Virus record (IMG/VR): IMGVR_UViG_2660237951_000012
Coordinates: 1-18,756 of that record
Direction: 5' to 3' (one strand)
DNA length: 18,756 nt
Source: a virus
Lineage: Duplodnaviria; Heunggongvirae; Uroviricota; Caudoviricetes
Shown here: positions 827 through 17,250 of the stretch, piece by piece
How the letters are laid out: the number at the start of each line of letters is the position of its first letter
How positions within the stretch are numbered: position 1 is the first letter of the stretch
Position numbers and translations under genes: made by a program
Notes under the pieces: generated by a model
What the model was told of the DNA's origin: nothing
Seen by the model: only the letters and a program-made list of their open reading frames with translations
The model's database searches: none

Positions 827-888
827 ATGAAGGGAGATTCTATCGATGTGGTCAATGGAAGACGGTGGCCAGGGATAGGGCTTATGCA

Positions 889-916
889 TAAAAAATAAGC
901 CCGTGTAAGGGAGATT
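889..916 (+). repeat. attL core of the P2-like prophage
   Basis: TAAAAAATAAGCCCGTGTAAGGGAGATT is repeated exactly at 17223..17250 in direct orientation. It matches the P2 att core as remembered and lies next to the int gene. Confidence 0.85.
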
Positions 917-995
917 TAGGGTGTCACCAGTAGGGGCTTTCAACGGTACAATGCGGGTTTGAGCGGCATAAATTACCACTGAAAGCCCTTAAACG

Positions 996-2009
996 TTACT
1001 CTACTGTGGACACTATGTGGACACTCTCGGCCTCAGTACCACCTCTTAGCGGATTAAGAGAAATGGCGTCCTGAAGGTACTCTGGCGCAAAATGAGCGTA
1101 AACCATAGTTTGCTCAATCCGCGTGTGACCTAGTATCCGTTGTAGCGTGATAATACTTCCTCCATTAATCATGAAATGAGTGGCAAAGCTGTGCCTTAGT
1201 GCATGTGTGGCTTGCCCCATTGGCAAATCCGGTTTTATTGCTTTCATTGTTCGTCTGAAGCGAGGGTAATCAGCATCAGGGAATAAAAAACCTCGTTTGT
1301 TATCCGCGATCATTTTGGCAACAGCCTCTGAGATCGGGACGGTGCGTGGTTTGTTTGTTTTCGTTTTAACAAACGTGACGCGGTTATGGATGATATTTTC
1401 TGCTTTCAAACGAGCTGCTTCTCCCCAACGTGCTCCAGTACTCAGGCAAAGAATCGCAATCTTTTTGTTGTCGCCGTCAAGAGCAGCAAGCAGTAAGGCA
1501 ATTTCTTCCTGCGTGAGATAGCCTGTGTCTGGTTTTTCCTCCTTAAGCCTTTTTGTCCCTCTGATAGGGTGCTCACCAAAGAATAACTCCGCTTCAATCA
1601 GGGCTGTAAACATGCCGCTAATACATGTTAAATCACGATTGATACTCGAAGGTTTAATACCCTGACTTCTTCGGGTGGCGCAGTACTGGCTGATAAGCGA
1701 TTTCGTAATTTGAAATGCGCATGGGTCATTCGTTATTTTTGTGAAGATTTCAATTTTTCCAAGATTAGATTTCCCATGCTCTTCGTGTTTACCCTTTAAA
1801 TCCCACCAGATCTGTGTCAGCTCCGACAGACGTCGCTTGTCTGTTGGTTTTGATAGCCATTCTTTATTGTGGTGGTTGTACAACGTGTATTTCTCGAAAG
1901 CGACAGCTTCGCTTTTCTTATCAAACTTCCTACGGATGCGTTTTCCATTACGTCCAGTAGGGCGGATGTCCACTTCATATCGACCATCATCGAGTTTTTT
2001 GATTGCCAT
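996..2009 (-). CDS. int: P2-type tyrosine integrase
   Basis: 337-aa translation (MAIKKLDDGRYEVDIRPTGRNGKRIRRKF...HALRHSFATHFMINGGSIITLQRILGHTRIEQTMVYAHF) matches remembered P2 Int, with the R...HxxR...Y catalytic signature; adjacent to attL. Confidence 0.95.
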   Translation of the reverse strand: MAIKKLDDGRYEVDIRPTGRNGKRIRRKFDKKSEAVAFEKYTLYNHHNKEWLSKPTDKRRLSELTQIWWDLKGKHEEHGKSNLGKIEIFTKITNDPCAFQITKSLISQYCATRRSQGIKPSSINRDLTCISGMFTALIEAELFFGEHPIRGTKRLKEEKPDTGYLTQEEIALLLAALDGDNKKIAILCLSTGARWGEAARLKAENIIHNRVTFVKTKTNKPRTVPISEAVAKMIADNKRGFLFPDADYPRFRRTMKAIKPDLPMGQATHALRHSFATHFMINGGSIITLQRILGHTRIEQTMVYAHFAPEYLQDAISLNPLRGGTEAESVHIVSTVE

Positions 2010-2124
2010 CAGAAAACCCTCCGAGTGGTGTGTTTTTTTGCGACTACTAATCGCTTTTTTCGTGGTGGCTGAAATTTAGCCACCAATAGTAGGCACTTGT
2101 GATGAATATATTCACGATGAATTG

Positions 2125-2424
2125 TTAACCAGTCTTTTGACCGGAGTGGGGCGACGTTGTTTCGTTTTGCCCAAAGTGTGCGAGAGCGGGCGCAATTTGC
2201 CCGGACTCAGGAGCGATCTGATTGGTCATGAACCATAAAGTGTATTTGGTGAATTGTGGGGTCTGCAGGATGTTCATCATGACATCTGTTGGAGGTGTTG
2301 AACGACCACTTTCATAGTAACTCAGCGTGCCATACGGAACCCCTGTTAAATCAGCAAGTTGTTGTCTGCTCAAATACTCTGATTTTCGCATTAAGACTAT
2401 CTTCTCGCTTATCGTGTTTGACAT
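2125..2424 (-). CDS. C: P2 immunity repressor C
   Basis: 99 aa, MSNTISEKIVLMRKSEYLSRQQLADLTGVPYGTLSYYESG..., helix-turn-helix; divergent from cox as in P2. Confidence 0.9.
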   Translation of the reverse strand: MSNTISEKIVLMRKSEYLSRQQLADLTGVPYGTLSYYESGRSTPPTDVMMNILQTPQFTKYTLWFMTNQIAPESGQIAPALAHFGQNETTSPHSGQKTG

Positions 2425-2538
2425 GGTGTTTAGATCTCAATAGTATTTAGTTTAGATGTAGATTGTTTAGTGCTTGGATGTGGGCACTAAAAGGCATTAT
2501 AAGACATTAAACGCAATTCATGAGGGCTAGAGGACGAC
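2425..2538. promoter_or_regulatory. C/cox immunity switch region with operator direct repeats
   Basis: Direct 8-bp repeats GTTTAGAT at 2428..2435 and 2450..2457 (22 bp apart) plus further TTTAG/TAGAT copies between the divergent C and cox starts, consistent with the P2 C operator layout. Confidence 0.55.
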
Positions 2539-2814
2539 ATGAGCAAGCAAGTAACACTCATGACTGATGCGATTCCTTATCAGGAGTTCGCAAAACTAAT
2601 AGGAAAATCGACAGGAGCGGTTCGTCGGATGATTGATAAAGGAAAGCTGCCTGTAATTGATATGACCGATCCACAATCAGCTTCAGGTCGTGCAGGTGAA
2701 TATTGGGTATACCTTCCGGCATGGAATAACGGACTAAAACTGGCTTATGAAAGCCGCCCTAAAGAGATTCGTGACGGCTGGTTGATGTGGTTGTGCCTTT
2801 ATGACAGTGGATGA
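2539..2814 (+). CDS. cox: P2 Cox (excision and lytic-switch regulator)
   Basis: 91 aa, MSKQVTLMTDAIPYQEFAKLIGKSTGAVRRMIDKGKLPVIDMTDPQSASGRAGEYWVYLPAWNNGLKLAYESRPKEIRDGW; the last codons may be altered by the adjacent rearrangement junction. Confidence 0.88.
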   Translation: MSKQVTLMTDAIPYQEFAKLIGKSTGAVRRMIDKGKLPVIDMTDPQSASGRAGEYWVYLPAWNNGLKLAYESRPKEIRDGWLMWLCLYDSG

Positions 2815-3040
2815 AATACGCATCGCGGATAACGGCGCGTTTTGTCGCTTCCGGCCACTTTTCATCCCACCTGTCGACCGAAAACGCCCACGCCAGCCAC
2901 GGCAGCAGATTTGCCGGACAGGTGTCCGGGTTCCACAGCTCACGAATACTGACCGGCGTTTTTTCAATTTCCGCACAGGCTTTTGCGGCGGCGACCTCAA
3001 GCGGTGATGAGCCGGTCGGCAGCAGTCGCGAATCACTCAT
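2795..3040 (-). pseudogene. I: tail protein I, N-terminal fragment (3' end lost at junction with cox)
   Basis: MSDSRLLPTGSSPLEVAAAKACAEIEKTPVSIRELWNPDTCPANLLPWLAWAFSVDRWDEKW...HCHKGT matches remembered P2 gpI up to about residue 82, then diverges and terminates. Inverted relative to canonical prophage order. Confidence 0.7.
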
Positions 3041-3359
3041 CCGAGCCTCCGGTCACGACGCGGTATTCGGTACAGAAAGACGCCTGCGTACTGTTGAGCA
3101 CGATGTCGGCCAGTGGTGCAGCCAGTTCGACACGCTGCACACCTTCCACATGCAAAGCGGCATAAATGGCAGACAGACGGATGTCGCGCCCCAGCCGGTG
3201 CTGTGCCGTGATATACGCTTCCAGCTTTTTCACAGCGGCAGCGCGGATGGGTTCGCTTTCGGGACCAGGGTAAAGGTAAAGCGTGGCGTTTATCTGGTAT
3301 TCAACGATGGCGGCAGACTGCACGGTCAGCCGGTCTTCAAAACGCTTAAACTCATTCAT
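3033..3359 (-). pseudogene. J: baseplate protein J, C-terminal portion (108-aa ORF)
   Basis: Sits immediately upstream of I with an ATGAGTGA start/stop overlap, as J does in P2; C-terminus ...TEYRVVTGGSDE. P2 J is about 302 aa, so only the C-terminal third is present. Identity rests on gene order plus partial recollection. Confidence 0.55.
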
Positions 3360-3740
3360 CCCACTTACTCACCAGTTCGCCATTGATATAAAGCTCCATC
3401 GGGCGGGTGACCGGCTCCGGCGGCGGAGGTTCCGGGATATTCTTCACATGCAGCGCACCGTCAACCTCACTGACCAGCGTGCGCTCGGTCAGCATCAGGC
3501 TGATGCTGATATCAAAGCTGCTGTCATTGTTGATGTCCGCATAAAACGTGAAGCCCTTTTTCTGGCCTTCGTCGGTGGTCATGATGTCGGGCTGATTTTC
3601 CCGCAGCCACGCCAGCACCGGCACGATGAGCAGGTCAAAATCACCGGTAAAGTCGGTCACAATGACATTGAGCGTGTAACGCTTTTCGAATGACAGCGAC
3701 GTCGCCAGTGTGGAGGCAATACTCCCGTTATCCGTCGTGG
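3352..3740 (-). pseudogene. C-terminal fragment of an unresolved P2-like late (virion morphogenesis) protein
   Basis: Protein-like sequence ...TDFTGDFDLLIVPVLAWLRENQPDIMTTDEGQKKGFTFYADINNDSSFDISISLMLTERTL...MELYINGELVSKWDE ending in an ATGAATGA overlap with the downstream ORF. The N-terminal 50 residues of the listed ORF are Gly/Ala-rich and look like antisense of the P fragment. Family not identified. Confidence 0.35.
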
Positions 3741-3963
3741 CTGTCTGGAATATGACGTCAGCGCCACCGACATCACCAGCTCGTTTATGGCTATCCGCAA
3801 GACCATGACCAGCAGCGGACGCAGTGCCACCTATGAGGCCAGCCGCAGCGAGGAAGCCAGCCACGCCGACCTCGCCTGGGCGACCATGCACGCCCTGTTA
3901 AATGAGCCACTCACCGCCGGTATCAGCACCCCGCTGACATCCACCATTCTGGAGTTTTACTGA
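3741..3963 (+). pseudogene. P: terminase large subunit P, C-terminal remnant
   Basis: The frame ending in TGATG overlap with the Q start codon translates to ...MAIRKTMTSSGRSATYEASRSEEASHADLAWATMHALLNEPLTAGISTPLTSTILEFY. P precedes Q in the P2 P-Q operon; only about 70 codons remain (an internal ATG at 3787 would give 58 aa). Confidence 0.4.
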
Positions 3964-4997
3964 TGAGCAAGAAAAAAGGGAAAACACCGCAACCTGCGGC
4001 AAAAAAAATGACCGCCAGCGCCCCGAAAATGGAGGCATTCACCTTTGGTGAGCCGGTGCCGGTACTCGACCGCCGTGACATTCTGGATTACGTCGAGTGC
4101 ATCAGTAACGGCAGATGGTATGAGCCACCGGTCAGCTTTACCGGTCTGGCAAAAAGCCTGCGTGCTGCCGTGCATCACAGCTCACCGATTTACGTCAAAC
4201 GCAATATTCTGGCCTCGACATTTATCCCGCATCCGTGGCTTTCCCAGCAGGATTTCAGCCGCTTTGTACTGGATTTTCTGGTGTTCGGTAATGCGTTTCT
4301 GGAAAAGCGTTACAGCACCACCGGTAAGGTCATCAGACTGGAAACCTCACCGGCAAAATATACCCGCCGTGGTGTGGAAGAGGATGTTTACTGGTGGGTG
4401 CCGTCCTTCAACGAGCCGACAGCCTTCACGCCCGGCTCCGTGTTTCACCTGCTGGAGCCGGATATTAATCAGGAGTTGTACGGCCTGCCGGAATATCTCA
4501 GCGCCCTTAATTCTGCCTGGCTGAATGAGTCGGCCACGCTGTTCCGCCGAAAGTATTACGAAAATGGCGCTCATGCCGGATACATTATGTACGTCACCGA
4601 TGCCGTGCAGGATCGCAACGATATCGAAATGCTTCGCGAAAACATGGTTAAGTCGAAAGGCCGCAACAACTTTAAAAATCTGTTTCTCTATGCCCCACAG
4701 GGGAAAGCCGACGGCATCAAAATTATCCCGCTCAGTGAAGTGGCAACGAAGGACGATTTTTTTAATATCAAAAAAGCCAGCGCCGCAGACCTGCTGGACG
4801 CACACCGCGTCCCCTTTCAGTTGATGGGCGGCAAGCCGGAGAATGTCGGGTCACTGGGTGATATTGAGAAAGTGGCAAAAGTATTCGTGCGAAATGAACT
4901 TACTCCACTCCAAAACCGGCTCAGTGAGGTCAATCATTGGGTAGGAGAATCAGTAATATGTTTTAAAAATTACAAACTTAGCGATGAGGATTATTAG
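3963..4997 (+). CDS. Q: portal protein Q
   Basis: 344 aa, MSKKKGKTPQPAAKKMTASAPKMEAFTFGEPVPVLDRRDILDYVECISNGRWYEPPVSF... matches remembered P2 gpQ at the same length. Orientation is inverted relative to int/C/cox. Confidence 0.92.
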   Translation: MSKKKGKTPQPAAKKMTASAPKMEAFTFGEPVPVLDRRDILDYVECISNGRWYEPPVSFTGLAKSLRAAVHHSSPIYVKRNILASTFIPHPWLSQQDFSRFVLDFLVFGNAFLEKRYSTTGKVIRLETSPAKYTRRGVEEDVYWWVPSFNEPTAFTPGSVFHLLEPDINQELYGLPEYLSALNSAWLNESATLFRRKYYENGAHAGYIMYVTDAVQDRNDIEMLRENMVKSKGRNNFKNLFLYAPQGKADGIKIIPLSEVATKDDFFNIKKASAADLLDAHRVPFQLMGGKPENVGSLGDIEKVAKVFVRNELTPLQNRLSEVNHWVGESVICFKNYKLSDEDY

Positions 4998-5002
4998 CCT
5001 AT

Positions 5003-5029
5003 AAAAAAGGCCGCAGAGCGGCCTTTTTT
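5003..5029. terminator. bidirectional intrinsic terminator between convergent Q and the 835-aa gene
   Basis: A6-GGCCGC-aga-GCGGCC-T6: GC stem flanked by an A-run and a T-run, so it can terminate on both strands. Confidence 0.7.
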
Positions 5030-5030
5030 A

Positions 5031-7505
5031 TTATACCTTTGTAATATGCTTTAATATTTCAATCACTTTAGCAACATATGATTGACTTACGCCGCCATCT
5101 CCTTCATATTCAGATATTTTATTTAAAGACTGTTTACATGCTTCCATATATTTAACTTTATTACTCTTCGATAGCTTATTGTAATTTGACAAATGAAAAT
5201 CTTTATATCTCGAAAACTGCCTCAGAGAGTAAATATCCACATCCAAATTACTAAGAAGGTTGTTTGCCTTTTCGAAATTAGAGAATACAATATTACCATC
5301 TGGTATCTTTTCGCTTGAAAGCAAATATATTTTTGCTTGCTGGGTATCAATATTGTTCGTGTGATATTTTGCTCGCTTTTCAGCTAACGCATATGCCTGG
5401 TCAATATACTGTTGTGCTTTTGGGTAATTTTTGTAAGCAATAAAACACATTGCGTATTGCAACCAGAAGTGTGGGTTTGAATTTAGCCATGGAACTTCAA
5501 TTTTTAACTTTTCATAATATCGTTGTAGCGTTGATATTTTCATACTTTCAGGAAGCAGCTGCTCAACAAAAGAAAACCTGAGCATAGCTTTAAATATTCT
5601 ATCCTGTTCATAATCCTTAGAGTTTAATTGATTAAACCTTGATGCAATAGTAAGCATTCGCTCTATAATAACAGTAGGAGTGAAATTATTTTTTATTAGA
5701 TGTATGCAAAATAAACTAGACCCGTTAATGATCCTACCGCCATGGAAATTAAATATTGCCTTAAACGCACTGTTATTAGTAAAATCCGGATCATAAATCA
5801 AATCATTGCCTGCAAGATCAGATATAATCCCTCGATTCGTTTCAATGCCAAGTATTTGACAAAGACAAATTGAAATAATTGTGTTTTCATGACTCTTACT
5901 CTTTTTAATCCCGGTAATTAAATCACTTATCTTATTTTTTATTTGCGGCGACTCCAAAAGAGTAAGCAATGCAATTGAGAATTGACTGTTATTCTCATTA
6001 GCTAAATATCTTACCTTTTGCTCTACACTAAGCCCTGCATTATCTCCCCAAAGACCTAAGTTATCTATTATTTTTGAAAAATCTTTTAACTCTACCTCAT
6101 CTAACATATCAATATTTATTTCAGAATATTTGAATTTTATGCGCTCCAAATCATCTCTGTGATATTCATGATCTGCAACACGGGCAGTAGCAAGTATTAG
6201 TACATTTTCGTAAGCAGCTCTGCCCACATGTTCCATTAATTCAAGATTCTTCTCATACCCATCAAGTAATATGATATTTTTCATGGATGATTGTGCTATA
6301 TAGTCAATATCTGATATAAAATCACCATCTATATCGGCCACTGTATAAACATCATAACCACCGACGGATAAAACACTCCTTAGCTCTTTCAATAAGATGG
6401 TTTTTCCGTTTCCAAGCGCCGAATAAATAATTACATTTTTTGATTGTTCAATTAATGAAACAGCTTTATCAATTTCACTTCTTTTTACTAAAAACGGTAC
6501 CTTAGTATTACCAAGTATAAAATTATCAATATGATGATCATCCAAATCACCATACATCAACATTTTTTCAACCTCTTCATCTCTAATAGAACTTGATTCA
6601 TTGGTTATATCATGAAGAAAAAGTGACTGTAGCTTATACTCCTGCTCTTCTGATACTGAAGTAATATTATCTCTTATTCTATTGGCAAAACCACTCAAAC
6701 CTATAGGCAAAACGGTACCGAATTTTTCTAGAGTAAATTCTAATTCGATATCAGGATTGAGACTAGTTACAAAAAATGTTTTTTCTTTTAATTGAGGTAA
6801 GGTAGAAAGGATTTTTTTTATTTCAATATCATACATTGAATAACCGATAAAAACGATCGCGCCACACCTATCTAAATCTCTTTTAAAATAATAGAACCAT
6901 TCAGAGTCAGTAAAAGAGTCAGGGCTTGAATAAGATGAATCAGAAAGTTTGAATGAATCATCAAGCGTTTCAGTAGAAATATTATTAATTGAACCATTAA
7001 GATGAATACATAAATTCTTGCGCTTATAATATTCCTTTGTTTTATGCTCAAGATCTATAGTTTCGAATTTATTACCGGATGATTCAGCTGCGATCTCAAA
7101 ACATCGGTCATAATTAGTTGTGTAACAACGTTTCCATGGTAGCGATGCGATTATATTTTGGTTCTCCGATGTTGTTTTTATAGAATAATTATAAATTAAT
7201 AGTTCTATTAATTTTAATGACGAGTTTTTTGCTAAGTAATAATCAGAAGAAAAGCGTAGGTTATCATTTTTAGGTATTGAACAAAGACCACATAATATAT
7301 GAGATAGCTCTATTGAAGAAGAAGGATTAGTATCATTAATATTCGTAGCTTCTTTAGAGAAACCCGCCCCCAAAAACAACATTGCCTTTCCAGAACAAAT
7401 ATTTGTAACTAGTTTAGCATAATCAATAGTTTGCTTGCTAATAATCAACTCTGTAAAATTAATATCCATTATAAAACCTATCATATAAATTAAGTGGGAT
7501 TTCAT
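5031..7505 (-). CDS. SIR2-like domain / P-loop NTPase / TPR-like repeat protein, candidate anti-phage defence
   Basis: The N-terminus carries the SIR2-type motif set LFLGAGFS, TTNYD, IHLNGS and VFIGYSMYD. The middle has a Walker A-like YSALGNGKT, Walker B-like NIILLDGYE and LILATAR. The C-terminus is helical and repeat-like. The listed ORF starts on TTG at 7538; ATG at 7505 (or 7469) is more likely. Strongly AT-rich by eye. Confidence 0.8.
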   Translation of the reverse strand: MKSHLIYMIGFIMDINFTELIISKQTIDYAKLVTNICSGKAMLFLGAGFSKEATNINDTNPSSSIELSHILCGLCSIPKNDNLRFSSDYYLAKNSSLKLIELLIYNYSIKTTSENQNIIASLPWKRCYTTNYDRCFEIAAESSGNKFETIDLEHKTKEYYKRKNLCIHLNGSINNISTETLDDSFKLSDSSYSSPDSFTDSEWFYYFKRDLDRCGAIVFIGYSMYDIEIKKILSTLPQLKEKTFFVTSLNPDIELEFTLEKFGTVLPIGLSGFANRIRDNITSVSEEQEYKLQSLFLHDITNESSSIRDEEVEKMLMYGDLDDHHIDNFILGNTKVPFLVKRSEIDKAVSLIEQSKNVIIYSALGNGKTILLKELRSVLSVGGYDVYTVADIDGDFISDIDYIAQSSMKNIILLDGYEKNLELMEHVGRAAYENVLILATARVADHEYHRDDLERIKFKYSEINIDMLDEVELKDFSKIIDNLGLWGDNAGLSVEQKVRYLANENNSQFSIALLTLLESPQIKNKISDLITGIKKSKSHENTIISICLCQILGIETNRGIISDLAGNDLIYDPDFTNNSAFKAIFNFHGGRIINGSSLFCIHLIKNNFTPTVIIERMLTIASRFNQLNSKDYEQDRIFKAMLRFSFVEQLLPESMKISTLQRYYEKLKIEVPWLNSNPHFWLQYAMCFIAYKNYPKAQQYIDQAYALAEKRAKYHTNNIDTQQAKIYLLSSEKIPDGNIVFSNFEKANNLLSNLDVDIYSLRQFSRYKDFHLSNYNKLSKSNKVKYMEACKQSLNKISEYEGDGGVSQSYVAKVIEILKHITKV

Positions 7506-7566
7506 AGTTAGTTCATTTCTGAACACAAAGCAAGTCAATAGCCATAATAAAATCTTTAACGCGCAG

Positions 7567-7585
7567 TGCTTTCCCCGCCTCGCCC
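7567..7585 (-). other. P2 cos site (19-nt cohesive end)
   Basis: Minus strand reads GGCGAGGCGGGGAAAGCAC, a 19/19 match to the P2 cohesive end as remembered; orientation agrees with the inverted segment. Confidence 0.8.
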
Positions 7586-8154
7586 GCCCGCTTCATGTGG
7601 CGGTTTTAATGCAGTTGCATAGATACTATGGATCCGCACCAGCTCTGACCGCGAGCAGCTGGAACGGGCATCCCCGACGCATGCAAAAACATTCACTTGT
7701 TGCATGCACGGCTTATTTAATGACAAATCAACTTAAGCGTCACCGCAGCTCCCACAAAAAAACGTAACACCATGATTTTAGTGATATTTATGACTTTTTT
7801 AATTGCTTATTTAAGTCCGCCATATTGAAACCGTGCATTTTTTAGCCACCAATAACTTTAAAAAATTTACATTGCTTTCAATACCTTATCATCCGTAGTC
7901 CCTGCTTTTTACTTTGAGCTATATCAAAAAAAGCTCAAACATCCTTGATGCAAAACCAGTATTACACAACATAAAATGCAACCAGAAACAACGACATACT
8001 ATATGTTGTGTTGTTCAGGCTCTCTGTTCGGTGATATGCCAGATCACTTTGCGTTTAAACAGAGCATTATTTCAGGGCAAGACTTCGCTAAATAGTAACT
8101 CCGCCTCAGAAGCGCATATATCGGCGGAAATTGCCCTCTGCTTACAGGAGGAGA

Positions 8155-8268
8155 TATGAAGAAGTGCTATTACTGCATTCTCGTTCTGGCCCTCTTTGGC
8201 TATCCATATGGTAGTCCAAGTGGTTTGTCAGTAAACGTCAGTAATATCCATGTAAGTATTATTCTTTA
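8155..8268 (+). CDS. hypothetical 37-aa hydrophobic peptide
   Basis: ATG preceded by strong AGGAGG Shine-Dalgarno at 7-nt spacing; MKKCYYCILVLALFGYPYGSPSGLSVNVSNIHVSIIL; followed by a hairpin with T-run. No recognisable homology. Confidence 0.35.
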
Positions 8269-8282
8269 GTATGCTTCAAACA

Positions 8283-8311
8283 AAAAAACCACCTGCCAGG
8301 GTGGTTTTTTT
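8283..8311 (+). terminator. putative intrinsic terminator
   Basis: AAAAAAACCACCTGCCAGGGTGGTTTTTTT: CCACC/GGTGG stem followed by a T7 run. Confidence 0.5.
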
Positions 8312-8571
8312 GCGCCTGTCATCATTCCGATGAAAGACTAGCAAGACTTCGCTCGAGATGAATTATGCTTCGACAAAAGGTCACTCGCAATGGTTTTATT
8401 AGCCGAAATAGATGCTCTTTTATGACTCGAATCAAATAGCTGCCTTAAATTACATGCTAGCGATTCAATACAATTTAGCCTTCTACTTCAGCATGCTATT
8501 GCTCCTCATCTGCATTAGAGGCGCTTCGCATAATCCATTCAAAGGCATATAAAATCACGCTGCATTTTTAC

Positions 8572-10848
8572 TCAAATGGGTAACAAAAATCCAGGCCACT
8601 CATCAGCGACCTGATAATTGAAATATTTCCCGTAATAATTTACGGTCGCGCCACGCGCCAGCGCCTCAAGCTCCCATCGCTGCGGCCTGATACCGTTCTG
8701 AGCAAGGTCAACGCGGATACGGGTAATTTGCATTCTTTCCGACCGGGTCAGTCTGGCCGATGGTGCAATTTCATGTGGTTTTAACGGGCTTCCGTTTCTT
8801 TGCTGACGATTTGGTGTTCTCAGGTCGTGTTTTAATGCCCCCCTGAGCGCCCTCACGACCTCCGTGTCATTCCATTCGATAACACCGTCATCAACCAGAT
8901 TAAGCACGGCTGCGGCGTGTTCAGAAGGTGTGGGAGCCGGTAACGAAGTATCACCACCGGTGAGCTTTCCACAGTTATTGACAGGACTCCGAGGCGCGGC
9001 GATGCCGCTTTTTAAAGTCAAAGGCTCAACGACCGGCACTTTCGGAACAATGCGCCAGTCCGTCGTTCTGGTGATATGAATATGACGCGCGCCGAGATGC
9101 GGCGCGTAAATGCCGACCACTCTCTCGACTTCTTCCTCGTACTCGTTAACGTCATCCGACGGGCTACGGGCGACCCTGACAGTCTGACAATCGCGCGGGA
9201 CATTTGCCCCGCCCTGCGCGCTGATATACAACGCAAAATCACCACTGTCTGCAGCGGCGCGTGCAGCCTCGACGCGCTCGTCAAACTCATCAGCAATGCT
9301 GACGCCGCGAGGCAATTTGCGTAGTTCACGGTAAGCCCCCATTGTCGGCAGACCAACCGTTTTAAATTGCGGAATGCGCCACGTTGACGCCCATGCGGTA
9401 ACAGCAGCAGCTGTGTCTTTCAGCGGCCTACCGGTATCATTATCGAGCTGACCATCCAGTGCATAGCCGTCGATGTTTTTTGAGATGTATTTCGCGATAT
9501 ATCCCGCAGCACCGCCCCGGTTAAGGTGTTTTGCCTGAAAACGGTTTCGCGCGGCTCCTCTTTCGTCGCCATCCTCTTTGAGCGCATAGCGACGCATGAT
9601 TTCAATAATCTGGTTACGCTGGCGTGGATTACAAAAAAGCATCATATGCCAGTGCGGCGTTCCGTCGTGGTGTGGTTCAACAACACGCAAACCGTAGGCC
9701 TGTAAATCATTATCCTTGAATGCCGTGCGCATCAGGCTCCAGATACGGCAGAGATAACGCTGCGCATCCTTTGGATTAAATGCCTCATCGTTCCAGCCGT
9801 GATTTAGCTGGACGGTTTTACTTTCGCCTTTTCTGACCTGACGTGTCGGGTGATACTTTGACGGCGCGGTCAGCGTGATAAACATCCCCACATCACCCTC
9901 TGCGGCGGCGTAACGCTCAATACCGGCGATGGTGTTCATCAGCTCCATCCGGCGAATTTCTGGATTAGAAATACTGCCCATCACCTTACTGATAAGGTCG
10001 ATGCGCTCGCCGGTTTCCTTGTTTTCAAGGTCACACGATTTAAGAAATTCCAGATTTGCCTGGCGGCGCGCACGCACATCACGAATGGCATGTTTACTGG
10101 CATAAGGAGAACGGTCTTTATTGACCTCCCCGACAGCAATCAGTAACGCCTCATGCCAGCGCATACGCTGGCCTTTAAGCTGATGAGTCCACCACTCATC
10201 GTTAAACAGGCGGGCAATGGCAGAATATGCCTGCCTCGTGGTCATCTGCCCTTTACGGTATTTTTTCCAGTAAAGCGGGGAAATATTGAAAGCACGTGCA
10301 GCGCCAGCAACATGACCATACAGATGTGCCTGCGCCTCATCCGTAAACAGCGATTCTTTTTCGCCATGCGCATCCACCCAGGCATCGCAGAGTTCCTCAT
10401 ACATCATGAAAAGCTGCGATGAGATACGGGCAGCAAACTTTTTCAGCTCCTTGTCATTCATTCCCGGCAGGCGCGCATAGTGGTCACGCTCTGCCAGAAA
10501 CAGCAACGACGCGTCGGTGTTCATTTCATGGCGCTGATTCACACGCTCAATGCGCGGCCATAAACGACGCTGAAAAGTGGATGTGAGGAAATAAAACCCG
10601 TGCACCGGGCTTTTATTGCGCCGGATGTAGTCATAGCGTGAAGTAAACAGCGAGCGCAAAAAGTAAGGCAGGCGGTTAATCGTGGATAAAACACCTTGCA
10701 CCTGACGCATCTCGTCACGTGTAAGGGGTCTTTCGCGCCCGACAGCCTCGCGTGGCGCGTTCCATGCATAAGCACCGGTAAACGCCTTACCGGTGCCTGC
10801 GGCAAATGCTGACGGAGGGACAAAACGCCCGGAGGCTTTAACGGCCAT
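8572..10848 (-). CDS. A: replication initiation endonuclease A (rolling-circle initiator)
   Basis: Matches remembered P2 gpA across its length (MAVKASGRFVPPSAFAAGTGK...HWHMMLFCNPRQ...YIAKYISKNIDGY). The listed ORF begins 14 codons upstream at 10890; the internal ATG at 10848 corresponds to the P2 start. Confidence 0.9.
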   Translation of the reverse strand: MAVKASGRFVPPSAFAAGTGKAFTGAYAWNAPREAVGRERPLTRDEMRQVQGVLSTINRLPYFLRSLFTSRYDYIRRNKSPVHGFYFLTSTFQRRLWPRIERVNQRHEMNTDASLLFLAERDHYARLPGMNDKELKKFAARISSQLFMMYEELCDAWVDAHGEKESLFTDEAQAHLYGHVAGAARAFNISPLYWKKYRKGQMTTRQAYSAIARLFNDEWWTHQLKGQRMRWHEALLIAVGEVNKDRSPYASKHAIRDVRARRQANLEFLKSCDLENKETGERIDLISKVMGSISNPEIRRMELMNTIAGIERYAAAEGDVGMFITLTAPSKYHPTRQVRKGESKTVQLNHGWNDEAFNPKDAQRYLCRIWSLMRTAFKDNDLQAYGLRVVEPHHDGTPHWHMMLFCNPRQRNQIIEIMRRYALKEDGDERGAARNRFQAKHLNRGGAAGYIAKYISKNIDGYALDGQLDNDTGRPLKDTAAAVTAWASTWRIPQFKTVGLPTMGAYRELRKLPRGVSIADEFDERVEAARAAADSGDFALYISAQGGANVPRDCQTVRVARSPSDDVNEYEEEVERVVGIYAPHLGARHIHITRTTDWRIVPKVPVVEPLTLKSGIAAPRSPVNNCGKLTGGDTSLPAPTPSEHAAAVLNLVDDGVIEWNDTEVVRALRGALKHDLRTPNRQQRNGSPLKPHEIAPSARLTRSERMQITRIRVDLAQNGIRPQRWELEALARGATVNYYGKYFNYQVADEWPGFLLPI

Positions 10849-11113
10849 ATGAGCCAAAAGCCTCTGAACAACGCTTGCTGAGTTGCTCAACCTGCGCGTT
10901 TAAATCAGCAAAAGACTTTGCGCTTCCGGTCAGAATATCGTGATGCATCAGGCCGGAAACGAGCTGGCTTAATTTCGGGTAATAACCAACCACCGCCAGC
11001 CATTCCTGACCGGCGTTTTTACCGCTTTCCGCTCTCTTTTTCTCGTGGAGAATAAACTGAAAGCTGTCACTGGTAACGACATAACGTTCGCCAATTTCAA
11101 TACGAATACTCAT
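10838..11113 (-). CDS. small P2 early-region protein upstream of A (orf83-like)
   Basis: 91 aa with GGAG Shine-Dalgarno 6 nt upstream of the ATG; its stop overlaps the A start. Position matches the small ORFs that precede A in P2; function unknown. Confidence 0.5.
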   Translation of the reverse strand: MSIRIEIGERYVVTSDSFQFILHEKKRAESGKNAGQEWLAVVGYYPKLSQLVSGLMHHDILTGSAKSFADLNAQVEQLSKRCSEAFGSYGR

Positions 11114-11188
11114 GCCGTTCTCCGGTAATGTTTGTTTTTTGCTTCAAAGACTGACTGGCAGGAAACACAACGCGTGGCTGACGGATAA

Positions 11189-12784
11189 GCCGCACGACGG
11201 GCACAGGACGCCACCACAGCACGAAAAGGCCTTGTCCAGCTCAGTAGTGCCACCAACAGCACGTCTGAAACGCTCGCTGCAACACCAAAAGCGGTAAAAG
11301 CAGCATATGACCTTGCTAACGGGAAATATACCGCACAGGACGCCACCACAGCGCGAAAAGGCCTTGTCCAGCTCAGTAGCGCCACCAACAGCGATTCTGA
11401 AACGCTTGCGGCAACACCAAAGGCGGTTAAGACAGCGTATGACCTTGCTAACGGGAAATACACTGCACAGGATGCCACTACAGCGCGAAAAGGTCTTGTC
11501 CAGCTCAGTAGCGCCACCAACAGTGATTCTGAAACGCTGGCCGCAACACCAAAAGCGGTGAGGTCTGCCTATGACAATGCTGAAAAACGTCTTCAGAAAG
11601 ATCAGAACGGTGCGGATATTCCGGGAAAGGATACCTTCACGAAAAATATCGGTGCCTGTCGTGCTTATAGCGGCGCTTTGAGCACTGAAGCCGGAAACTG
11701 GACAACCGCGCAGTTTATTGACTGGCTAGAGTCTCAGGGAGCCTTTAATCATCCCTACTGGATGTGCAAGTGTTCCTGGTCATACGGTAATAACAAAATT
11801 ATTACCGATACTGACTGTGGGACTATTCATCTTGCAGGTTGCGTGATTGAGGTTATGGGCGTTAAAGCAGCAATGACCATTCGTGTGACCACTCCGAGTA
11901 CATCAAGCGGTGGTGGTACCACCAGTGCGCAATTCACGTATATCAATCACGGAGCTGATTATGCGCCGGGCTGGCGACGCGACTACAATACGAAAAATAA
12001 GCAACCGGCTTTTGCATTAGGGAAAACAGGAAATACGGTTGCAAATAATAAAGCGGTAGGATGGAACTGGGACAGTGGTGCTTATTGTGCACAGGATGGC
12101 GGAGCATCAAAAATGGTGCTGCATTTTTACACGGGTGAGGGAAGTTGTCCGGCAATGCAGTTTCTTGTGGATTATAAAAACAGGGGGATTTTTTACAGGT
12201 CGGCACGTGATGGGTATGGATTTGAGGCTGACTGGTCAGAGTTTTATACAACATCACGAAAGCCAACACCTGCGGATATTCTTGCTCTGGCATTATCAGG
12301 CGGAAGCATGTCAGGCAGCATAAAATTTATCAATGATGCCTTCCTGATTTGGGAAAGAAACACTGACTGGGCGAAAATTGGATTTAAAAATGATTCAGAT
12401 GCTGATTCTGACTCATACATGTGGTTTGAAACTGGTGATAATGGCAATGAATATTTTAAATGGCGCATCAGGTCTGGCAGCACAACAAAAGATCTGATGA
12501 CGCTTAAGTCTGATGCACTACGGGTTACCGGGCAGGTGATACCATCAAATTTCAGCAATTTTGACTCCCGCTATGTCCGGGATCTCCGACTTGGTGGTGC
12601 AGCCACATACAAACCTGCGAACAATGGCATGACATGGACACATCAGGCACCGTCCGGGTGTGTATATACCGGCATTATTGTTCAGGATACCGGCTCAAAC
12701 TCTGCCGATAACATTGGTGGCGTATATTACAGACCGGTTCAGAAATACATTAACGGGACATGGTACAACGTGGCGCAGGTATAA
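11189..12784 (+). pseudogene. H: tail fibre protein H, 5'-truncated
   Basis: The frame is open from the stop at 11186 with no ATG, GTG or TTG before the GTG at 11558. It encodes the H repeat region, the conserved WERNTDWAKIGFKNDSDADSDSYMWFETGDNGNEYFKWR block and the C-terminus RPVQKYINGTWYNVAQV. The roughly 200 N-terminal residues of P2 H are absent. Confidence 0.8.
11201..11575 (+). repeat. tandem 132-bp repeats (about 2.8 copies) in the tail-fibre H gene
   Basis: The unit encoding AYDLANGKYTAQDATTARKGLVQLSSATNS(D/T)SETLAATPKAVKT recurs with period 132 nt (TATGACCTTGCTAACGGGAAATA at 11306 and 11438). It generates the spurious ORFs 11110..11520(-) and 11307..11561(+). Confidence 0.85.
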
Positions 12785-12787
12785 TTT

Positions 12788-13315
12788 ATGCAGCATTTGA
12801 TAAATATAACGGCAGGTAATCCAAAAACGGTTGAACAATATCAATTGACAAAGGACTTTGATGTTGTCTGGTTTTTTACAGAAGATGGTAAGAACTGGTA
12901 CGAAGAACAAAAGTATTTTGCTGATGACACGATAAAAATAGCGTACGACAAAGATAATATTATCCGCTATGTAGAAAAGGATGTGACAGCTATCAGACCG
13001 GATGGATTAAGTGTTGTTGAAGTGCCGGATATTACTGCTAACCGACGGGCGGACATTTCAGGGAACTGGATGTTTAAGGACGGCAAAGTGATTAAACGCA
13101 TTTATACGGCAGAGGAATTACAACAGCAGGCAGAAATTCGGAAAGCCAGACTTCTTGCAGATGCTGAATCCGTGATTTTGCCGCTGGAGCGCGCTGTCAG
13201 GCTGAACATGGCAACAGAGGAGGAGCGCACACGGCTGGAGGCTTGGGAACGCTACAGCGTTTTGGTCAGTCGTGTGGATCCTGCAAATCCTGAATGGCCG
13301 GAAATGCCGCAATAA
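12788..13315 (+). CDS. G: tail fibre assembly protein G
   Basis: 175 aa, [40 protein letters not shown]...[14 protein letters not shown] matches remembered P2 gpG. Confidence 0.9.
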
Positions 13316-13348
13316 GTTGTATAAGCTCTGGTGTGAGATTACATATCT

Positions 13349-13392
13349 ATGGCACAGAGTAAAGCCTAATCTGGCAGTCCGCTCTGTGCCAT
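13349..13392. other. 11-bp perfect inverted repeat (ATGGCACAGAG / CTCTGTGCCAT) with 22-nt loop
   Basis: Seen directly, just downstream of G at the boundary of the AT-rich cargo island. Confidence 0.4.
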
Positions 13393-13510
13393 TACCGGAC
13401 ATACTGAGCAGAAGGCTAAAAAGGACGCTTTCAGGACATATAGCAAGGGAGCAAGGATGAAAGAATTAACCAAGTATATTTAATGTTTCAATCATGATAG
13501 TTTCTGAATT

Positions 13511-13533
13511 AAAGGGGGCTACCCACCCCCTTT
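13511..13533 (-). terminator. putative hairpin terminator downstream of the 92-aa gene
   Basis: AAAGGGGG-ctaccca-CCCCCTTT stem-loop immediately after the stop at 13536; flanking T-run is weak. Confidence 0.4.
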
Positions 13534-13535
13534 AA

Positions 13536-13814
13536 TTACTTGTTCCACTCAGTCAGAATTTGGTTACTAACTTCATCTGAGAGATTGTACCAATAAGCTG
13601 AGTTATTGGTTGCGTCTACAACAATAAGCTTATCATCACTATCCATGACCGCCCTCACAATTTTGGCTGCATCCTCGGCAGAGTAACTACAGTTAACATA
13701 CCAGTTCGATTCAGTTGTTAAAGCCCAATTTCCTAAAGATTTAATTGCATCATACACAGCCGCATAATCTTTCGTTTTAATGAGGTCGTAAGTAATAAAT
13801 AAATTATTAGCCAT
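13536..13814 (-). CDS. hypothetical 92-aa protein (Z/fun-position cargo)
   Basis: ATG with GGGAG Shine-Dalgarno 8 nt upstream; MANNLFITYDLIKTKDYAAVYDAIKSLGNWALTTESNWYV...; no homology recognised. Confidence 0.6.
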   Translation of the reverse strand: MANNLFITYDLIKTKDYAAVYDAIKSLGNWALTTESNWYVNCSYSAEDAAKIVRAVMDSDDKLIVVDATNNSAYWYNLSDEVSNQILTEWNK

Positions 13815-13840
13815 AAATCATCTCCCAAAGGACAAAGAAA

Positions 13841-13866
13841 AAAGCGCCTAGAAAGGCGCTCATATA
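13841..13866 (-). terminator. intrinsic terminator between the DUF3606-like gene and the 92-aa gene
   Basis: Minus strand reads AGCGCC-tttcta-GGCGCT followed by TTTTTTCTTT, lying between the stop at 13867 and the next Shine-Dalgarno. Confidence 0.6.
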
Positions 13867-15490: not shown

Positions 15491-15658
15491 ATGAGTGACT
15501 ATCATCATGGCGTGCAGGTGCTGGAGATTAACGACGGCACCCGCGTGGATGAATCACTGGCCGCGCTTTATGGCGATATCGGTAAACAGGCGGAGTCGCT
15601 CATCGGTAAGGCTGGCAGTATGGCGACCAGATTCACGGGTATGACGGGGGCGGGATAA
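15491..15658 (+). pseudogene. in-frame fusion remnant: tail sheath FI N-terminus joined to tail protein U C-terminus
   Basis: The 55-aa ORF starts MSDYHHGVQVLEIN (remembered FI start) and ends ...SMATRFTGMTGAG with a TAATG overlap onto D, which is the natural U/D junction. Implies deletion of FI, FII, E, T and most of U. Confidence 0.55.
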
Positions 15659-16821
15659 TGCTGGATGCGCTGACATTTGATGCAGGCAGTACGCTGACGC
15701 CGGATTACATGCTGATGCTCGACAGCAGGGATATTACCGGCAATATCAGCGACCGTCTGATGAGCATGACCCTGACGGATAACCGGGGCTTTGAGGCTGA
15801 CCAGCTTGATATTGAACTGAACGATGCCGACGGGCAGGTCGGGCTGCCGGTTCGTGGCGCTGTCCTGACGGTGTATATCGGCTGGAAAGGTTTTGCCCTG
15901 GTATGCAAAGGGAAATTTACCGTTGATGAGGTTGAACACCGGGGCGCACCGGATGTAGTCACCATCCGCGCCCGGAGTGCAGATTTTCGCGGGACGCTCA
16001 ATTCCCGCCGGGAAGGCTCCTGGCATGACACCACGCTCGGTGCGATTGTTAAGGCGATAGCCACCCGTAACAGGCTGGAAGCCAGTGTCGCTCCGTCACT
16101 GGCCGGAATTAAAATCCCGCACATCGACCAGTCGCAGGAGTCTGATGCGAAATTTCTGACCCGTCTTGCAGAACGCAACGGCGGTGAGGTGTCGGTAAAA
16201 ATGGGAAAACTGCTGTTTCTCAAAGCGGGGCAGGGGGTGACGGCCAGCGGTAAAAAAATCCCGCAGATTACCATCACCCGCAGCGATGGTGACCGTCACC
16301 ATTTTGCGATTGCTGACCGTGGAGCCTACACCGGCGTAACGGCAAAGTGGCTACACACCAAAGACCCGAAGCCGCAAAAGCAGAAGGTAAAACTGAAACG
16401 CAAAAAGAAAGAGAAACACCTGCGCGCACTGGAGCACCCGAAAGCGAAACCGGTCACGCAGAAGAAAGCGCCAAAAGTACCGGAAGCGCGCGAAGGTGAA
16501 TACATGGCCGGTGAGGCTGACAATGTTTTTGCCCTGACCACGGTATATGCCACAAAAGCGCAGGCCATGCGCGCCGCTCAGGCGAAGTGGGATAAACTGC
16601 AACGGGGTGTGGCGGAGTTCTCCATCAGCCTGGCTACCGGTCGGGCAGATATTTACACGGAAACACCGGTTAAAGTGTCAGGCTTTAAGCGCGTCATAGA
16701 CGAGCAGGACTGGACAATCACTAAGGTGACACATTTTCTTAATAATAGCGGCTTCACGACGTCCTTAGATCTTGAGGTCAGGCTTTCTGATGTGGAGTAC
16801 GAAACAGAAGATGATGAGTGA
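15658..16821 (+). CDS. D: tail protein D
   Basis: 387 aa, MLDALTFDAGSTLTPDYMLMLDSRDITGNISDRLMSMTLTDNRGFEADQLDIELNDADGQ... matches remembered P2 gpD, including the Lys-rich internal segment. Confidence 0.92.
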   Translation: MLDALTFDAGSTLTPDYMLMLDSRDITGNISDRLMSMTLTDNRGFEADQLDIELNDADGQVGLPVRGAVLTVYIGWKGFALVCKGKFTVDEVEHRGAPDVVTIRARSADFRGTLNSRREGSWHDTTLGAIVKAIATRNRLEASVAPSLAGIKIPHIDQSQESDAKFLTRLAERNGGEVSVKMGKLLFLKAGQGVTASGKKIPQITITRSDGDRHHFAIADRGAYTGVTAKWLHTKDPKPQKQKVKLKRKKKEKHLRALEHPKAKPVTQKKAPKVPEAREGEYMAGEADNVFALTTVYATKAQAMRAAQAKWDKLQRGVAEFSISLATGRADIYTETPVKVSGFKRVIDEQDWTITKVTHFLNNSGFTTSLDLEVRLSDVEYETEDDE

Positions 16822-17121: not shown

Positions 17122-17132
17122 TTACAAACAGA

Positions 17133-17159: not shown

Positions 17160-17222
17160 GTCGATGTGGTCAATGTGTGGACGTGACCAGAAATAAATCC
17201 TTTTATTTCATTGTATTACGCG

Positions 17223-17250
17223 TAAAAAATAAGCCCGTGTAAGGGAGATT
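17223..17250 (+). repeat. attR core of the P2-like prophage
   Basis: Exact copy of 889..916; overlaps the 3' terminator end of cyaR on the opposite strand. Confidence 0.85.

What the first reader, a model, noticed from the sequence alone, without database searches (positions are those of the whole stretch)
2795..11200. Inverted about 8.4-kb block with large deletions: a scrambled P2 prophage that keeps its cargo loci
Relative to int(-)/C(-)/cox(+), the genes A and the orf83-like ORF are on the minus strand and Q and the P remnant on the plus strand, opposite to canonical P2 prophage order, while H', G, D and ogr keep canonical orientation. The block contains only fragments of I, J, an unresolved late gene and P, so the capsid genes O-N-M-L, the lysis genes and V/W are deleted. 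Junctions fall near 2795..2815, 3340..3360, 3740 and 11113..11200. Both accessory loci are nevertheless intact.
Basis: partly seen in the sequence, partly recalled or inferred. Interest (0 to 1): 0.55.

Follow-up and report, generated by a model that had tools for sequence, protein, structure and literature searches.

The report
Scrambled, defective P2 prophage remnant
This is a dead P2-type virus embedded in an E. coli chromosome that has lost half its genes and has one 8.4-kb piece flipped, while its two anti-virus "cargo" slots survive; the flip is real in the sequence but it is an ordinary example of prophage decay, seen so far in one draft assembly only.

Summary
Window 889-17250 is a P2-family prophage between attL (882-916) and attR (17216-17250) at the yegS/yegR...cyaR-yegQ site. 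Window 2793-11207 (8,415 bp) lies on the opposite strand to both flanks, compared with phage P2 and with an intact prophage at the same site in E. coli M172-1. Refined junctions are 2792|2793, 3323-3335, 3726-3733, 11201-11207, plus an unreported deletion junction at 15538-15546. The "unresolved late gene" is R. Of 41 P2 genes, 24 are absent, 8 are fragments and 9 are full length (cox with an altered tail). The two inversion junctions share 0 and 3 nt of homology and have lost 1,415 and 920 bp. The three plain deletions sit on 8-13-nt direct repeats. No inverted repeat, invertase or IS element is present, so I infer illegitimate recombination. The cos-proximal cargo is an intact Avs5-type SIR2-STAND gene, and the Z/fun-slot trio is also intact. 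Every junction is private to one SOAPdenovo short-read draft (GCA_001484085.1), so a misassembly cannot be excluded (about 10-15%). Defective P2 prophages that keep their defence genes are already described. Interest is low.

The parts
882..916 (+). attL core, a direct repeat of attR
   Evidence: 35-nt direct repeat with 17216-17250, 94% identical (family D8); the P2 attP core aligns from window 889
996..2009 (-). int, full length (337 aa, 99.4% to P2 Int)
   Evidence: Pfam Phage_integrase
2125..2424 (-). C immunity repressor, full length (99 aa, 100% to P2 C)
2418..2446 (+). Pe-like early promoter (TTGACA-17-TAGTAT)
   Evidence: same position as Pe in the P2 annotation
2539..2814 (+). cox'. 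P2 homology ends at 2792, 22 nt before the native stop. The last 6 codons and the stop come from antisense I, and the product is still 91 aa.
   Evidence: the exact product WP_072215982.1 is found on one contig only
2793..11207 (-). Inverted block of 8,415 bp. Its content runs opposite to the canonical prophage order.
2793..3040 (-). I' fragment (N-terminal, about 83 aa)
3036..3335 (-). J' fragment (aa 203-302)
3323..3335 (.). Deletion junction J'/S-R' on an imperfect 13-nt direct repeat (CGGTCAGCCGGTC). Removes P2 8952-11897 (S, orf30, V, W, J N-terminus).
3355..3732 (-).
   Evidence: phrog_65 tail terminator; Pfam P2_Phage_GpR
3726..3733 (.). Deletion junction R'/P' on an 8-nt direct repeat (CGTTATCC). 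Removes P2 1459-8540 (P N-terminus, O, N, M, L, X, Y, K, lysA/B/C, R N-terminus).
3727..3962 (+). P' fragment (terminase ATPase, aa 513-590)
3963..4997 (+). Q portal gene, full length (344 aa)
5001..5031 (.). Perfect 14-nt hairpin with A/T runs on both sides, between Q and the cargo gene. Likely a bidirectional terminator.
   Evidence: inverted repeat I25
5031..7505 (-). Cos-proximal cargo: Avs5-type SIR2-STAND gene, 824 aa, intact
   Evidence: Pfam SIR2_2 1.1e-13, with nSTAND3/5 below their cut-offs; PADLOC ThsA-type SIR2; PDB 9jap_A (EfAvs5, PMC11897194) E = 2e-130 over residues 3-795; exact sequence on 86 contigs
7566..7584 (.). cos, the 19-nt cohesive-end sequence
   Evidence: P2 1-25 and 33546-33593 both align here
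7614..8587 (.). About 1 kb with no convincing ORF, between cos and the 3' end of A. It travels with the block.
8572..10848 (-). A, the replication-initiator nickase, full length (758 aa as called; 97.5% to P2 A)
10838..11113 (-). orf83 (DUF5405), full length, 91 aa
11113..11207 (-). orf82' fragment (aa 45-74)
11201..12784 (+). H' tail-fibre gene lacking about 209 N-terminal codons and any start codon before 11558. It opens with 3 tandem 132-nt units (11201-11596).
   Evidence: colinear with the OkiPb01716 H gene
12788..13315 (+). G tail-fibre assembly gene, full length, 175 aa
13536..15230 (.). Z/fun-slot cargo of three ORFs: 13536-13814(-) 92 aa, 13867-14085(-) DUF3606, 14538-15230(+) 230 aa. 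All intact; function unknown.
   Evidence: the same trio is in OkiPb01716
15491..15658 (+). In-frame fusion of FI (about 18 aa) to U (aa 121-159), behind the pF region. The deletion junction at 15538-15546 sits on a 9-nt repeat (CACCCGCGT) and removes P2 17708-22670 (FI, FII, E, T, U N-terminus).
15658..16821 (+). D, full length, 387 aa
16903..17121 (+). ogr, full length, 72 aa, 100% to P2 Ogr
17216..17250 (+). attR core

Best explanation
The window holds a defective (cryptic) P2-family prophage at the cyaR/yegQ attachment site of a commensal E. coli.

Origin of the structure. An ancestor of about 33 kb resembled the intact same-site prophages of strains M172-1 (early region, Avs5 cargo) and OkiPb01716 (H, G, Z/fun trio). 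It lost about half its DNA in a few illegitimate-recombination events. Three were plain deletions between 8-13-nt direct repeats, the signature of RecA-independent slippage or short-homology deletion. One was a non-homologous inversion of the segment that runs from the early operon through A, cos, the cargo gene and Q/P to gene I. Its two joints share only 0 and 3 nt of homology, and 1,415 bp and 920 bp were lost at the breakpoints. That pattern (deletion-inversion-deletion) fits either two double-strand breaks that were resected and rejoined with the middle piece flipped, or an inversion followed by one 2.3-kb deletion across one joint. This step is inferred.

Consequences, partly shown from gene content and partly inferred. 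The element has no capsid, lysis, baseplate, sheath, tube or tape-measure genes, and no B. Its replication genes orf83-A are cut off from the early promoter Pe and face the other way, so it can neither replicate nor form particles. It keeps int, the C repressor, both att cores and cos. It also keeps both accessory slots intact: an Avs5-type SIR2-STAND NTPase, expected to deplete NAD+ on sensing phage, and a three-gene Z/fun-slot cassette of unknown function. In effect it is now a fixed immunity and defence island.
For: 1. Strand and colinearity maps.
2. Canonical orientation in four same-site prophages and in all matching phage records.
3. Junction sequences and microhomologies.
4. No inverted repeat pairing the two block ends.
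5. No recombinase, IS or tRNA in the window.
6. No N in 25 kb of the contig.
7. Pe-like promoter upstream of cox, and no promoter-like site upstream of orf82'-orf83-A on the minus strand.
8. Cargo integrity.
9. Homology-free inversions inside P2 prophages do occur. The complete genome ETEC1701 has an independent, near-reciprocal one at the same site.
10. Defective P2 elements with conserved defence genes are reported in PMC13586616, and the two cargo slots in PMC9122126 and PMC13586616.
11. A uniform random-deletion model spares both cargo slots in only 1-3% of trials.
Against: 1. All junction-spanning products occur on one contig of one Illumina/SOAPdenovo 2.04 draft (PMC7133007). No read-level or independent-assembly support could be obtained.
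2. This type of inversion is rare. It was found in 1 of 5,426 complete E. coli genomes, 1,772 of which had a match.
3. The order and number of events, and the molecular pathway, cannot be recovered, because no relative shares any junction.
4. Silencing of A rests only on a consensus promoter scan.
5. The random-deletion test is post hoc and has n = 1.
Confidence: 0.8

Rival explanations
1. Assembly artefact. The strain really has the block in canonical orientation, with two extra plain deletions (cox to orf82 and I to H), and SOAPdenovo flipped the middle piece.
For: The structure comes from a single short-read draft made with SOAPdenovo 2.04. No other assembly, complete genome, species-representative genome or metagenome contig carries either joint. 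Such inversions are rare.
Against: The joints are seamless, with no N in 25 kb of the contig. There is no repeat at either joint where a graph could branch. A de Bruijn contig can only contain junction k-mers that are present in reads. Flipping the block back does not restore native sequence. It would need two further deletions with no clean microhomology (0 nt at the cox/orf82 joint; only an imperfect GCAC match at the I/H joint), unlike the three real deletions with 8-13 nt. The rest of the contig is colinear with E. coli on both sides.
Confidence: 0.12
2. Programmed inversion by a site-specific serine invertase (Gin/Cin/Pin type). Such enzymes are used by P2-like phages, including the M172-1 relative, to switch tail fibres.
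For: M172-1 carries a recombinase gene next to its tail-fibre genes, and one joint lies inside H.
Against: There is no recombinase gene in the window. No inverted repeats pair the block ends. DNA was lost at both joints (1,415 and 920 bp), which conservative site-specific recombination does not do. The other joint is in cox, not in a fibre gene.
Confidence: 0.01
3. The block was not inverted in place. A linear fragment of a second, incoming P2-like genome (orf82 through cos to I) replaced the resident middle part in reverse orientation, by end-joining or two illegitimate crossovers.
For: The element is a mosaic. The block from P' to orf82' is closest to M172-1 (99.2%). The I'J' piece is closer to P2 and OkiPb01716 (99.1%) than to M172-1 (94.5%). 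The right arm is closest to OkiPb01716 (97.3%).
Against: Mosaicism of this degree is normal among P2-like phages and needs no special event. This model needs the same two homology-free joints plus DNA uptake. Nothing distinguishes it from in-place inversion.
Confidence: 0.05
4. Homologous recombination between two inversely oriented P2-like prophages, or other inverted repeats, flipped the segment.
For: Many E. coli carry several P2-like prophages (median of 2-3 matching places per genome).
Against: The joints connect non-homologous positions (cox to I, orf82 to H) with 0-3 nt of identity. Both flanks belong to one chromosomal locus that is contiguous in other strains.
Confidence: 0.02

Closest known systems
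Bacteriophage P2 (NC_001895) as a prophage
   Same: 96-99.5% nucleotide identity over int, C, cox, I', J', R', P', Q, A, orf83, D and ogr. Same att core, same cos, same outer orientation (attL-int ... ogr-attR).
   Different: 24 of 41 genes are absent and 8 are truncated. The orf82'-A-cos-Q-P'-R'-J'-I' segment is inverted. Old/tin and Z/fun are replaced by other cargo. H and G are a different allele (47-78% aa identity).
Intact P2-like prophage of E. coli M172-1 (CP058714) at the same yegQ-yegS site
   Same: Same insertion site. Same Avs5-type cargo between Q and cos. 99.16% identity over window 3726-11207 in one piece.
   Different: M172-1 is complete and canonical in order. It has an invertase and a switchable tail-fibre module where the window has the DUF3606 trio.
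Defective P2-like elements with conserved defence genes (PMC13586616), and the K-12 ogrK/yegZ P2 remnant (the K-12 remnant is from my own knowledge, not tested here)
   Same: Loss or pseudogenisation of mobility and morphogenesis genes, with neighbouring defence genes left nearly identical to those of intact phages. EC2001, 1218KP and ETEC1701 at this same site also keep their cos-proximal cargo.
   Different: That paper does not mention inversions (no occurrence of 'inversion', 'inverted' or 'rearrange'). Here decay includes an 8.4-kb inversion, and both cargo slots survive.
E. coli ETEC1701 (CP122938) prophage at the same site
   Same: An independent homology-free inversion whose block also contains A (in part), cos, the cargo and Q/P.
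   Different: Different breakpoints (inside A, and at the K/lysA boundary). It is near-reciprocal, with only 3-4 nt gained or lost. It has different cargo (an AAA ATPase) and an IS3 element in int. It comes from a complete genome.
Avs5 (EfAvs5, PDB 9JAP; PMC11897194)
   Same: Full-length homology (E = 2e-130, residues 3-795 of 824). N-terminal SIR2 domain followed by a STAND NTPase region.
   Different: It is a different orthologue, and its activity and phage trigger are untested. It sits in a prophage cos-proximal hotspot.

Membership tests
P2-family (Peduovirus) prophage | Nucleotide or protein homology to P2 core genes | tested here: met
   17 of 41 P2 proteins hit, mostly at 94-100% identity (the H/G allele and the FI stub are lower, 48-78%); blastn E = 0; 178 phage records matched, mostly Peduovirus and P2-like phages
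P2-family (Peduovirus) prophage | Integrated between duplicated att cores next to int | tested here: met
   35-nt direct repeats at 882-916 and 17216-17250. These positions equal the P2 attP core.
P2-family (Peduovirus) prophage | Canonical gene order int-C-cox-B-A-cos-Q-P-O...H-G-FI...D-ogr | tested here: not met
   2793-11207 is inverted relative to both flanks
P2-family (Peduovirus) prophage | Complete set of essential replication, head, tail and lysis genes, i.e. a viable phage | tested here: not met
   24 genes are absent and 8 are truncated. It is a remnant, not a functional member.
Site-specific invertible DNA segment (Gin/Cin/Pin type) | Invertase gene adjacent to the segment | tested here: not met
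   No recombinase ORF other than the tyrosine integrase int
Site-specific invertible DNA segment (Gin/Cin/Pin type) | Inverted-repeat crossover sites at both ends, and conservative exchange | tested here: not met
   No inverted repeat pairs 2793 with 11207. 1,415 and 920 bp are missing at the joints.
IS- or transposon-mediated inversion | An IS copy at one or both joints | tested here: not met
   Every base of 2793-11207 and of the flanks aligns to P2-like phage DNA or cargo. No transposase ORF is present.
Avs5 (SIR2-STAND antiviral NLR-like protein) | N-terminal SIR2 effector domain | tested here: met
   Pfam SIR2_2 at 51.9 bits, above its 24.5 cut-off; PADLOC ThsA-type SIR2
Avs5 (SIR2-STAND antiviral NLR-like protein) | Central STAND/NOD NTPase and C-terminal sensor, with full-length similarity to a characterised Avs5 | tested here: met
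   phmmer against PDB 9jap_A (EfAvs5): E = 2e-130 over residues 3-795. The Pfam nSTAND3/5 hits are below their curated cut-offs.
Avs5 (SIR2-STAND antiviral NLR-like protein) | Anti-phage activity with NAD+ depletion | not testable with these tools
   Needs a phage challenge and an NADase assay
P2 defence-cargo hotspots (cos-proximal gpA-gpQ slot; Z/fun slot) | Variable non-core genes between A and Q next to cos, and between G and FI | tested here: met
   Avs5-like gene at 5031-7505 between Q and cos; the trio at 13536-15230 between G and pF/FI'. Different cargo occupies the same slots in P2, ETEC1701, 1218KP, OkiPb01716 and M172-1. The slots are defined in PMC9122126 and PMC13586616.

The most novel reading that the evidence does not exclude
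The deletion-inversion-deletion was a single end-joining or template-switching event that disabled the prophage in one step: it removed B and uncoupled A from the early promoter. Together with the other deletions it was retained because selection protected the two defence slots. On this reading, homology-free inversions around cos (seen independently in ETEC1701 at the same site) would be a recurrent route by which E. coli turns P2 prophages into fixed defence islands.
Probability: 0.12. Interest if true: 0.35.

Novelty: new member of a known kind. Interest (0 to 1): 0.17.

Why it matters
The importance is modest. The window gives a fully mapped, base-resolved example of how a P2 prophage decays. 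There are three short-repeat deletions and one homology-free inversion with loss at both joints. The two known defence-cargo slots remain intact: an Avs5-type gene and an uncharacterised three-gene cassette. This agrees with recent population-scale reports that defective P2 elements keep functional-looking defence genes. It adds inversion to the list of inactivating lesions. It does not reveal a new system or mechanism. The uncharacterised Z/fun-slot trio is the only part with discovery potential, and it is not specific to this remnant.

Tried and rejected
1. Inverted repeats or invertase sites at the block ends: none found.
2. The same junctions elsewhere. None were found in 5,426 complete E. 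coli genomes, in 185,579 species-representative genomes for both J1 and J2, or in JGI metagenome contigs for J1. Exact look-ups of four junction-spanning proteins returned this contig only. One search failed only because the called gene starts with a non-ATG codon; it was repeated with M as the first residue.
3. Recurrence survey. I built a synthetic query of int-C-cox, 13.3 kb of random padding, and P+Q in the window's relative orientation, so that only 'inverted-type' genomes would join both parts. Only ETEC1701 did. Sensitivity is limited to inversions that leave P/Q within about 9.5 kb of cox and keep at least about 0.9 kb of P/Q.
4. Flipping the block back in silico to test whether the 'virtual' canonical joints look like ordinary microhomology deletions: they do not.
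5. RNA families in the 1-kb gene-free stretch 7500-8650: only sub-threshold chance hits.
6. PADLOC on the Z/fun trio and small ORFs: no hits.
7. Random-deletion simulation for cargo survival: nominal P of 0.01-0.03. I treat this as suggestive only, because it is post hoc, has n = 1 and assumes uniform placement.
8. 'samples_with_this_contig: 4' disagrees with 'contigs: 1'. I could not resolve this and do not count it as independent support.
Full report
**What the window is**

The window is part of contig LLYC01000087.1 (33,885 bp; window = record positions 2486-21241) of the E. coli draft assembly GCA_001484085.1. This is a human-gut commensal isolate sequenced on an Illumina HiSeq 2000 and assembled with SOAPdenovo 2.04 (PMC7133007).

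The chromosomal frame is yegS/yegR on the left and the CyaR sRNA (17227-17312, minus strand, 100.7 bits) plus yegQ/trhP on the right. Between them, a P2-family prophage is bounded by 35-nt direct repeats at 882-916 and 17216-17250. These repeats correspond to the P2 attP core. The same site is occupied by P2-like prophages or remnants in strains M172-1, OkiPb01716, EC2001, 1218KP and ETEC1701.

**Checking the observation**

blastn against P2 gives the following map:

| Window | P2 coordinates | Strand | Content |
|---|---|---|---|
| 889-2792 | 24355-26258 | + | attL core, int, C, cox |
| 2793-3335 | 12440-11898 | - | I N-terminus, J C-terminus |
| 3323-3733 | 8951-8541 | - | R, start of S |
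| 3726-4902 | 1458-282 | - | P C-terminus, Q |
| 7566-7584 | cos | | cohesive-end sequence |
| 8588-11207 | 30294-27674 | - | A, orf83, orf82 C-terminus |
| 11201 onward | H internal repeats, then H and G | + | |
| 15276-15546 | pF/FI start | + | |
| 15538-17250 | 22671-24382 | + | U C-terminus, D, ogr, attR |

- Against the intact same-site prophage of M172-1, window 3726-11207 is one colinear 7,483-nt alignment at 99.16% identity. It lies on the strand opposite to both flanks.
- The right arm, 11201-15546, is colinear with OkiPb01716 at 97.3%.
- tblastn with all 41 P2 proteins confirms the strands and fragments. Full length: int, C, Q, A, orf83, G, D and ogr, plus cox with its last six residues replaced. 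Fragments: I, J, R, P, orf82, H, FI and U. Twenty-four genes are absent.

So the inverted block is real in this sequence and spans 2793-11207 (8,415 bp). The 'unresolved late gene' is R. A fifth junction, at 15538-15546 outside the block, removes FI through U and was not in the finding.

**Is this simply another phage's gene order?**

No.

- None of 50,697 phage records covers the window in one orientation.
- Four other elements at this very site have the block in canonical orientation. They include EC2001, which shares the P'-Q-cargo-A segment at 99.3% identity.
- I also built a synthetic query: int-C-cox, then 13.3 kb of random padding, then P+Q in the window's relative orientation. With this design, only genomes with the inverted arrangement would join the two parts.
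- Among 5,426 complete E. coli genomes (1,772 with any match), only ETEC1701 did so.
- ETEC1701 carries an independent inversion at the same site. Its breakpoints are inside A and at the K/lysA boundary, and it is near-reciprocal, with only 3-4 nt gained or lost.

Such inversions therefore happen, but they are rare.

**Junction anatomy**

- The three plain deletions sit on short direct repeats: an imperfect 13 nt at 3323-3335, 8 nt (CGTTATCC) at 3726-3733, and 9 nt (CACCCGCGT) at 15538-15546.
- The two inversion joints differ from these. The joint at 2792|2793 has no shared base, and the joint at 11201-11203 shares 3 nt (GCA).
- In P2 coordinates, 26259-27673 (1,415 bp: the cox tail, orf78, B, orf80, orf81 and the orf82 N-terminus) and 12441-13360 (920 bp: the I C-terminus and the H N-terminus) are missing at these joints.
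- No inverted repeat pairs the two ends.
- The window holds no invertase, IS element or tRNA.

I therefore infer illegitimate recombination. It was either one 'deletion-inversion-deletion' event (two resected breaks rejoined with the middle piece flipped, or template switching) or an inversion followed by a single 2.3-kb deletion across one joint. The data cannot separate these two routes. No relative shares any junction.

**Could it be a misassembly?**

This cannot be excluded, because the structure exists in one short-read draft only. Several points argue against it:

- The joints are seamless, with no N in 25 kb of the contig.
- There is no repeat at either joint where an assembly graph could branch.
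- Turning the block back would not restore native sequence. It would require two further deletions that lack the microhomology seen at the three genuine deletions.

I put the artefact at about 0.1-0.15.

**Functional state (inferred from content)**

- The element lacks all head, lysis, baseplate, sheath, tube and tape-measure genes, and it lacks B.
- A and orf83 are now separated from the early promoter (Pe-like site at 2418-2446) and point the other way.
- No promoter-like site lies upstream of them (this is weak evidence).
- The element keeps int, C, both att cores and cos.
- cox' is still 91 aa, but its last six residues (GLGEPR in P2) are replaced by CLYDSG, read from antisense I.
- H' has no start codon before 11558.
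- An in-frame FI'-'U stub precedes intact D and ogr.

**Cargo**

- The cos-proximal slot (between A and Q, PMC9122126) holds an 824-aa SIR2-STAND gene at 5031-7505 on the minus strand.
- That gene has a Pfam SIR2_2 hit. It is a full-length homologue of EfAvs5, PDB 9JAP, with E = 2e-130 (PMC11897194). Its exact sequence is present on 86 contigs, so it is intact.
- The Z/fun slot (PMC13586616) holds three intact ORFs at 13536-15230: phrog_1090, DUF3606/phrog_10779 and phrog_11802. They have no PADLOC match. The same cassette occurs in OkiPb01716.
- A uniform random-deletion model with the observed deletion sizes spares both slots in only 1-3% of trials.
- The other same-site remnants (EC2001, 1218KP, ETEC1701) also keep their cos-proximal cargo.
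- This fits selection for the cargo, but the test is post hoc and has n = 1.

**Comparison with what is known**

[quoted passage not shown] The hotspots themselves are described in PMC9122126. That literature does not mention inversions, so the inversion is an extra detail rather than a new kind of thing.

**Verdict**

It is a new member of a known kind, a cryptic P2 prophage remnant that retains its defence cargo. Interest is low, and confirmation at read level is still needed.

Noticed in passing
window 17227-17312 (-): A complete CyaR (RyeE) sRNA gene (Rfam RF00112, 100.7 bits) overlaps the attR core (17216-17250). The prophage sits at the 3' end of cyaR.
   Followed up: partly
window 7614-8587: About 1 kb between cos and the 3' end of gene A has no ORF longer than 81 aa. 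It is 93-99% conserved and also unannotated in M172-1, EC2001, Salmonella phage MET_P1_103_31 and a P2 variant (OU784750). No Rfam family matches; only palindromic sub-threshold hits occur around 8203-8367.
   Followed up: partly
window 7505-7584: The Avs5-like gene starts only 28-60 nt from the 19-nt cos sequence. Its promoter must lie on or across cos, so the gene would be cut off from its upstream DNA in linear virion DNA.
   Followed up: no
window 11201-11596: Three tandem 132-nt (44-aa) units open the truncated tail-fibre gene H'. The inversion joint falls exactly at the start of the first full unit. OkiPb01716 has an extra partial unit upstream.
   Followed up: partly
L004 (E. coli ETEC1701, CP122938) 7565/7566 and 17076/17078: An independent inversion inside a P2-like prophage at the same yegQ site. 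Its breakpoints are inside A and at the K/lysA boundary. It is near-reciprocal (3-4 nt gained or lost) and has no inverted repeats. An IS3 element interrupts int in the same element.
   Followed up: partly
window 13536-15230: The Z/fun-slot cassette has three ORFs: a 92-aa protein (phrog_1090), a DUF3606 protein and a 230-aa protein (phrog_11802). None has a known function or a PADLOC match. The same cassette is in the OkiPb01716 prophage. It is a candidate uncharacterised accessory or defence module.
   Followed up: partly
window 2539-2814: The truncated cox reading frame picks up six codons and a stop from antisense gene I, and ends at exactly the native length (91 aa). It is therefore annotated as an ordinary Cox protein (WP_072215982.1).
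   Followed up: yes
window 15491-15658: An in-frame 55-aa fusion joins the first ~18 codons of sheath gene FI to the last 39 codons of U. It lies behind the late promoter region pF and is followed by intact D and ogr.
   Followed up: partly
L007 17302-17851 (source contig, just beyond the window's right end): A ParD/ParE toxin-antitoxin pair lies between yegQ and yegP in this strain and in OkiPb01716. It is not present in EC2001, 1218KP, ETEC1701 or M172-1 at that position.
   Followed up: no
database record for LLYC01000087.1: the look-up of encoding contigs reports 'samples_with_this_contig: 4', whereas listing of cluster members reports the junction protein on 1 contig. I could not tell whether these are independent assemblies.
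   Followed up: no
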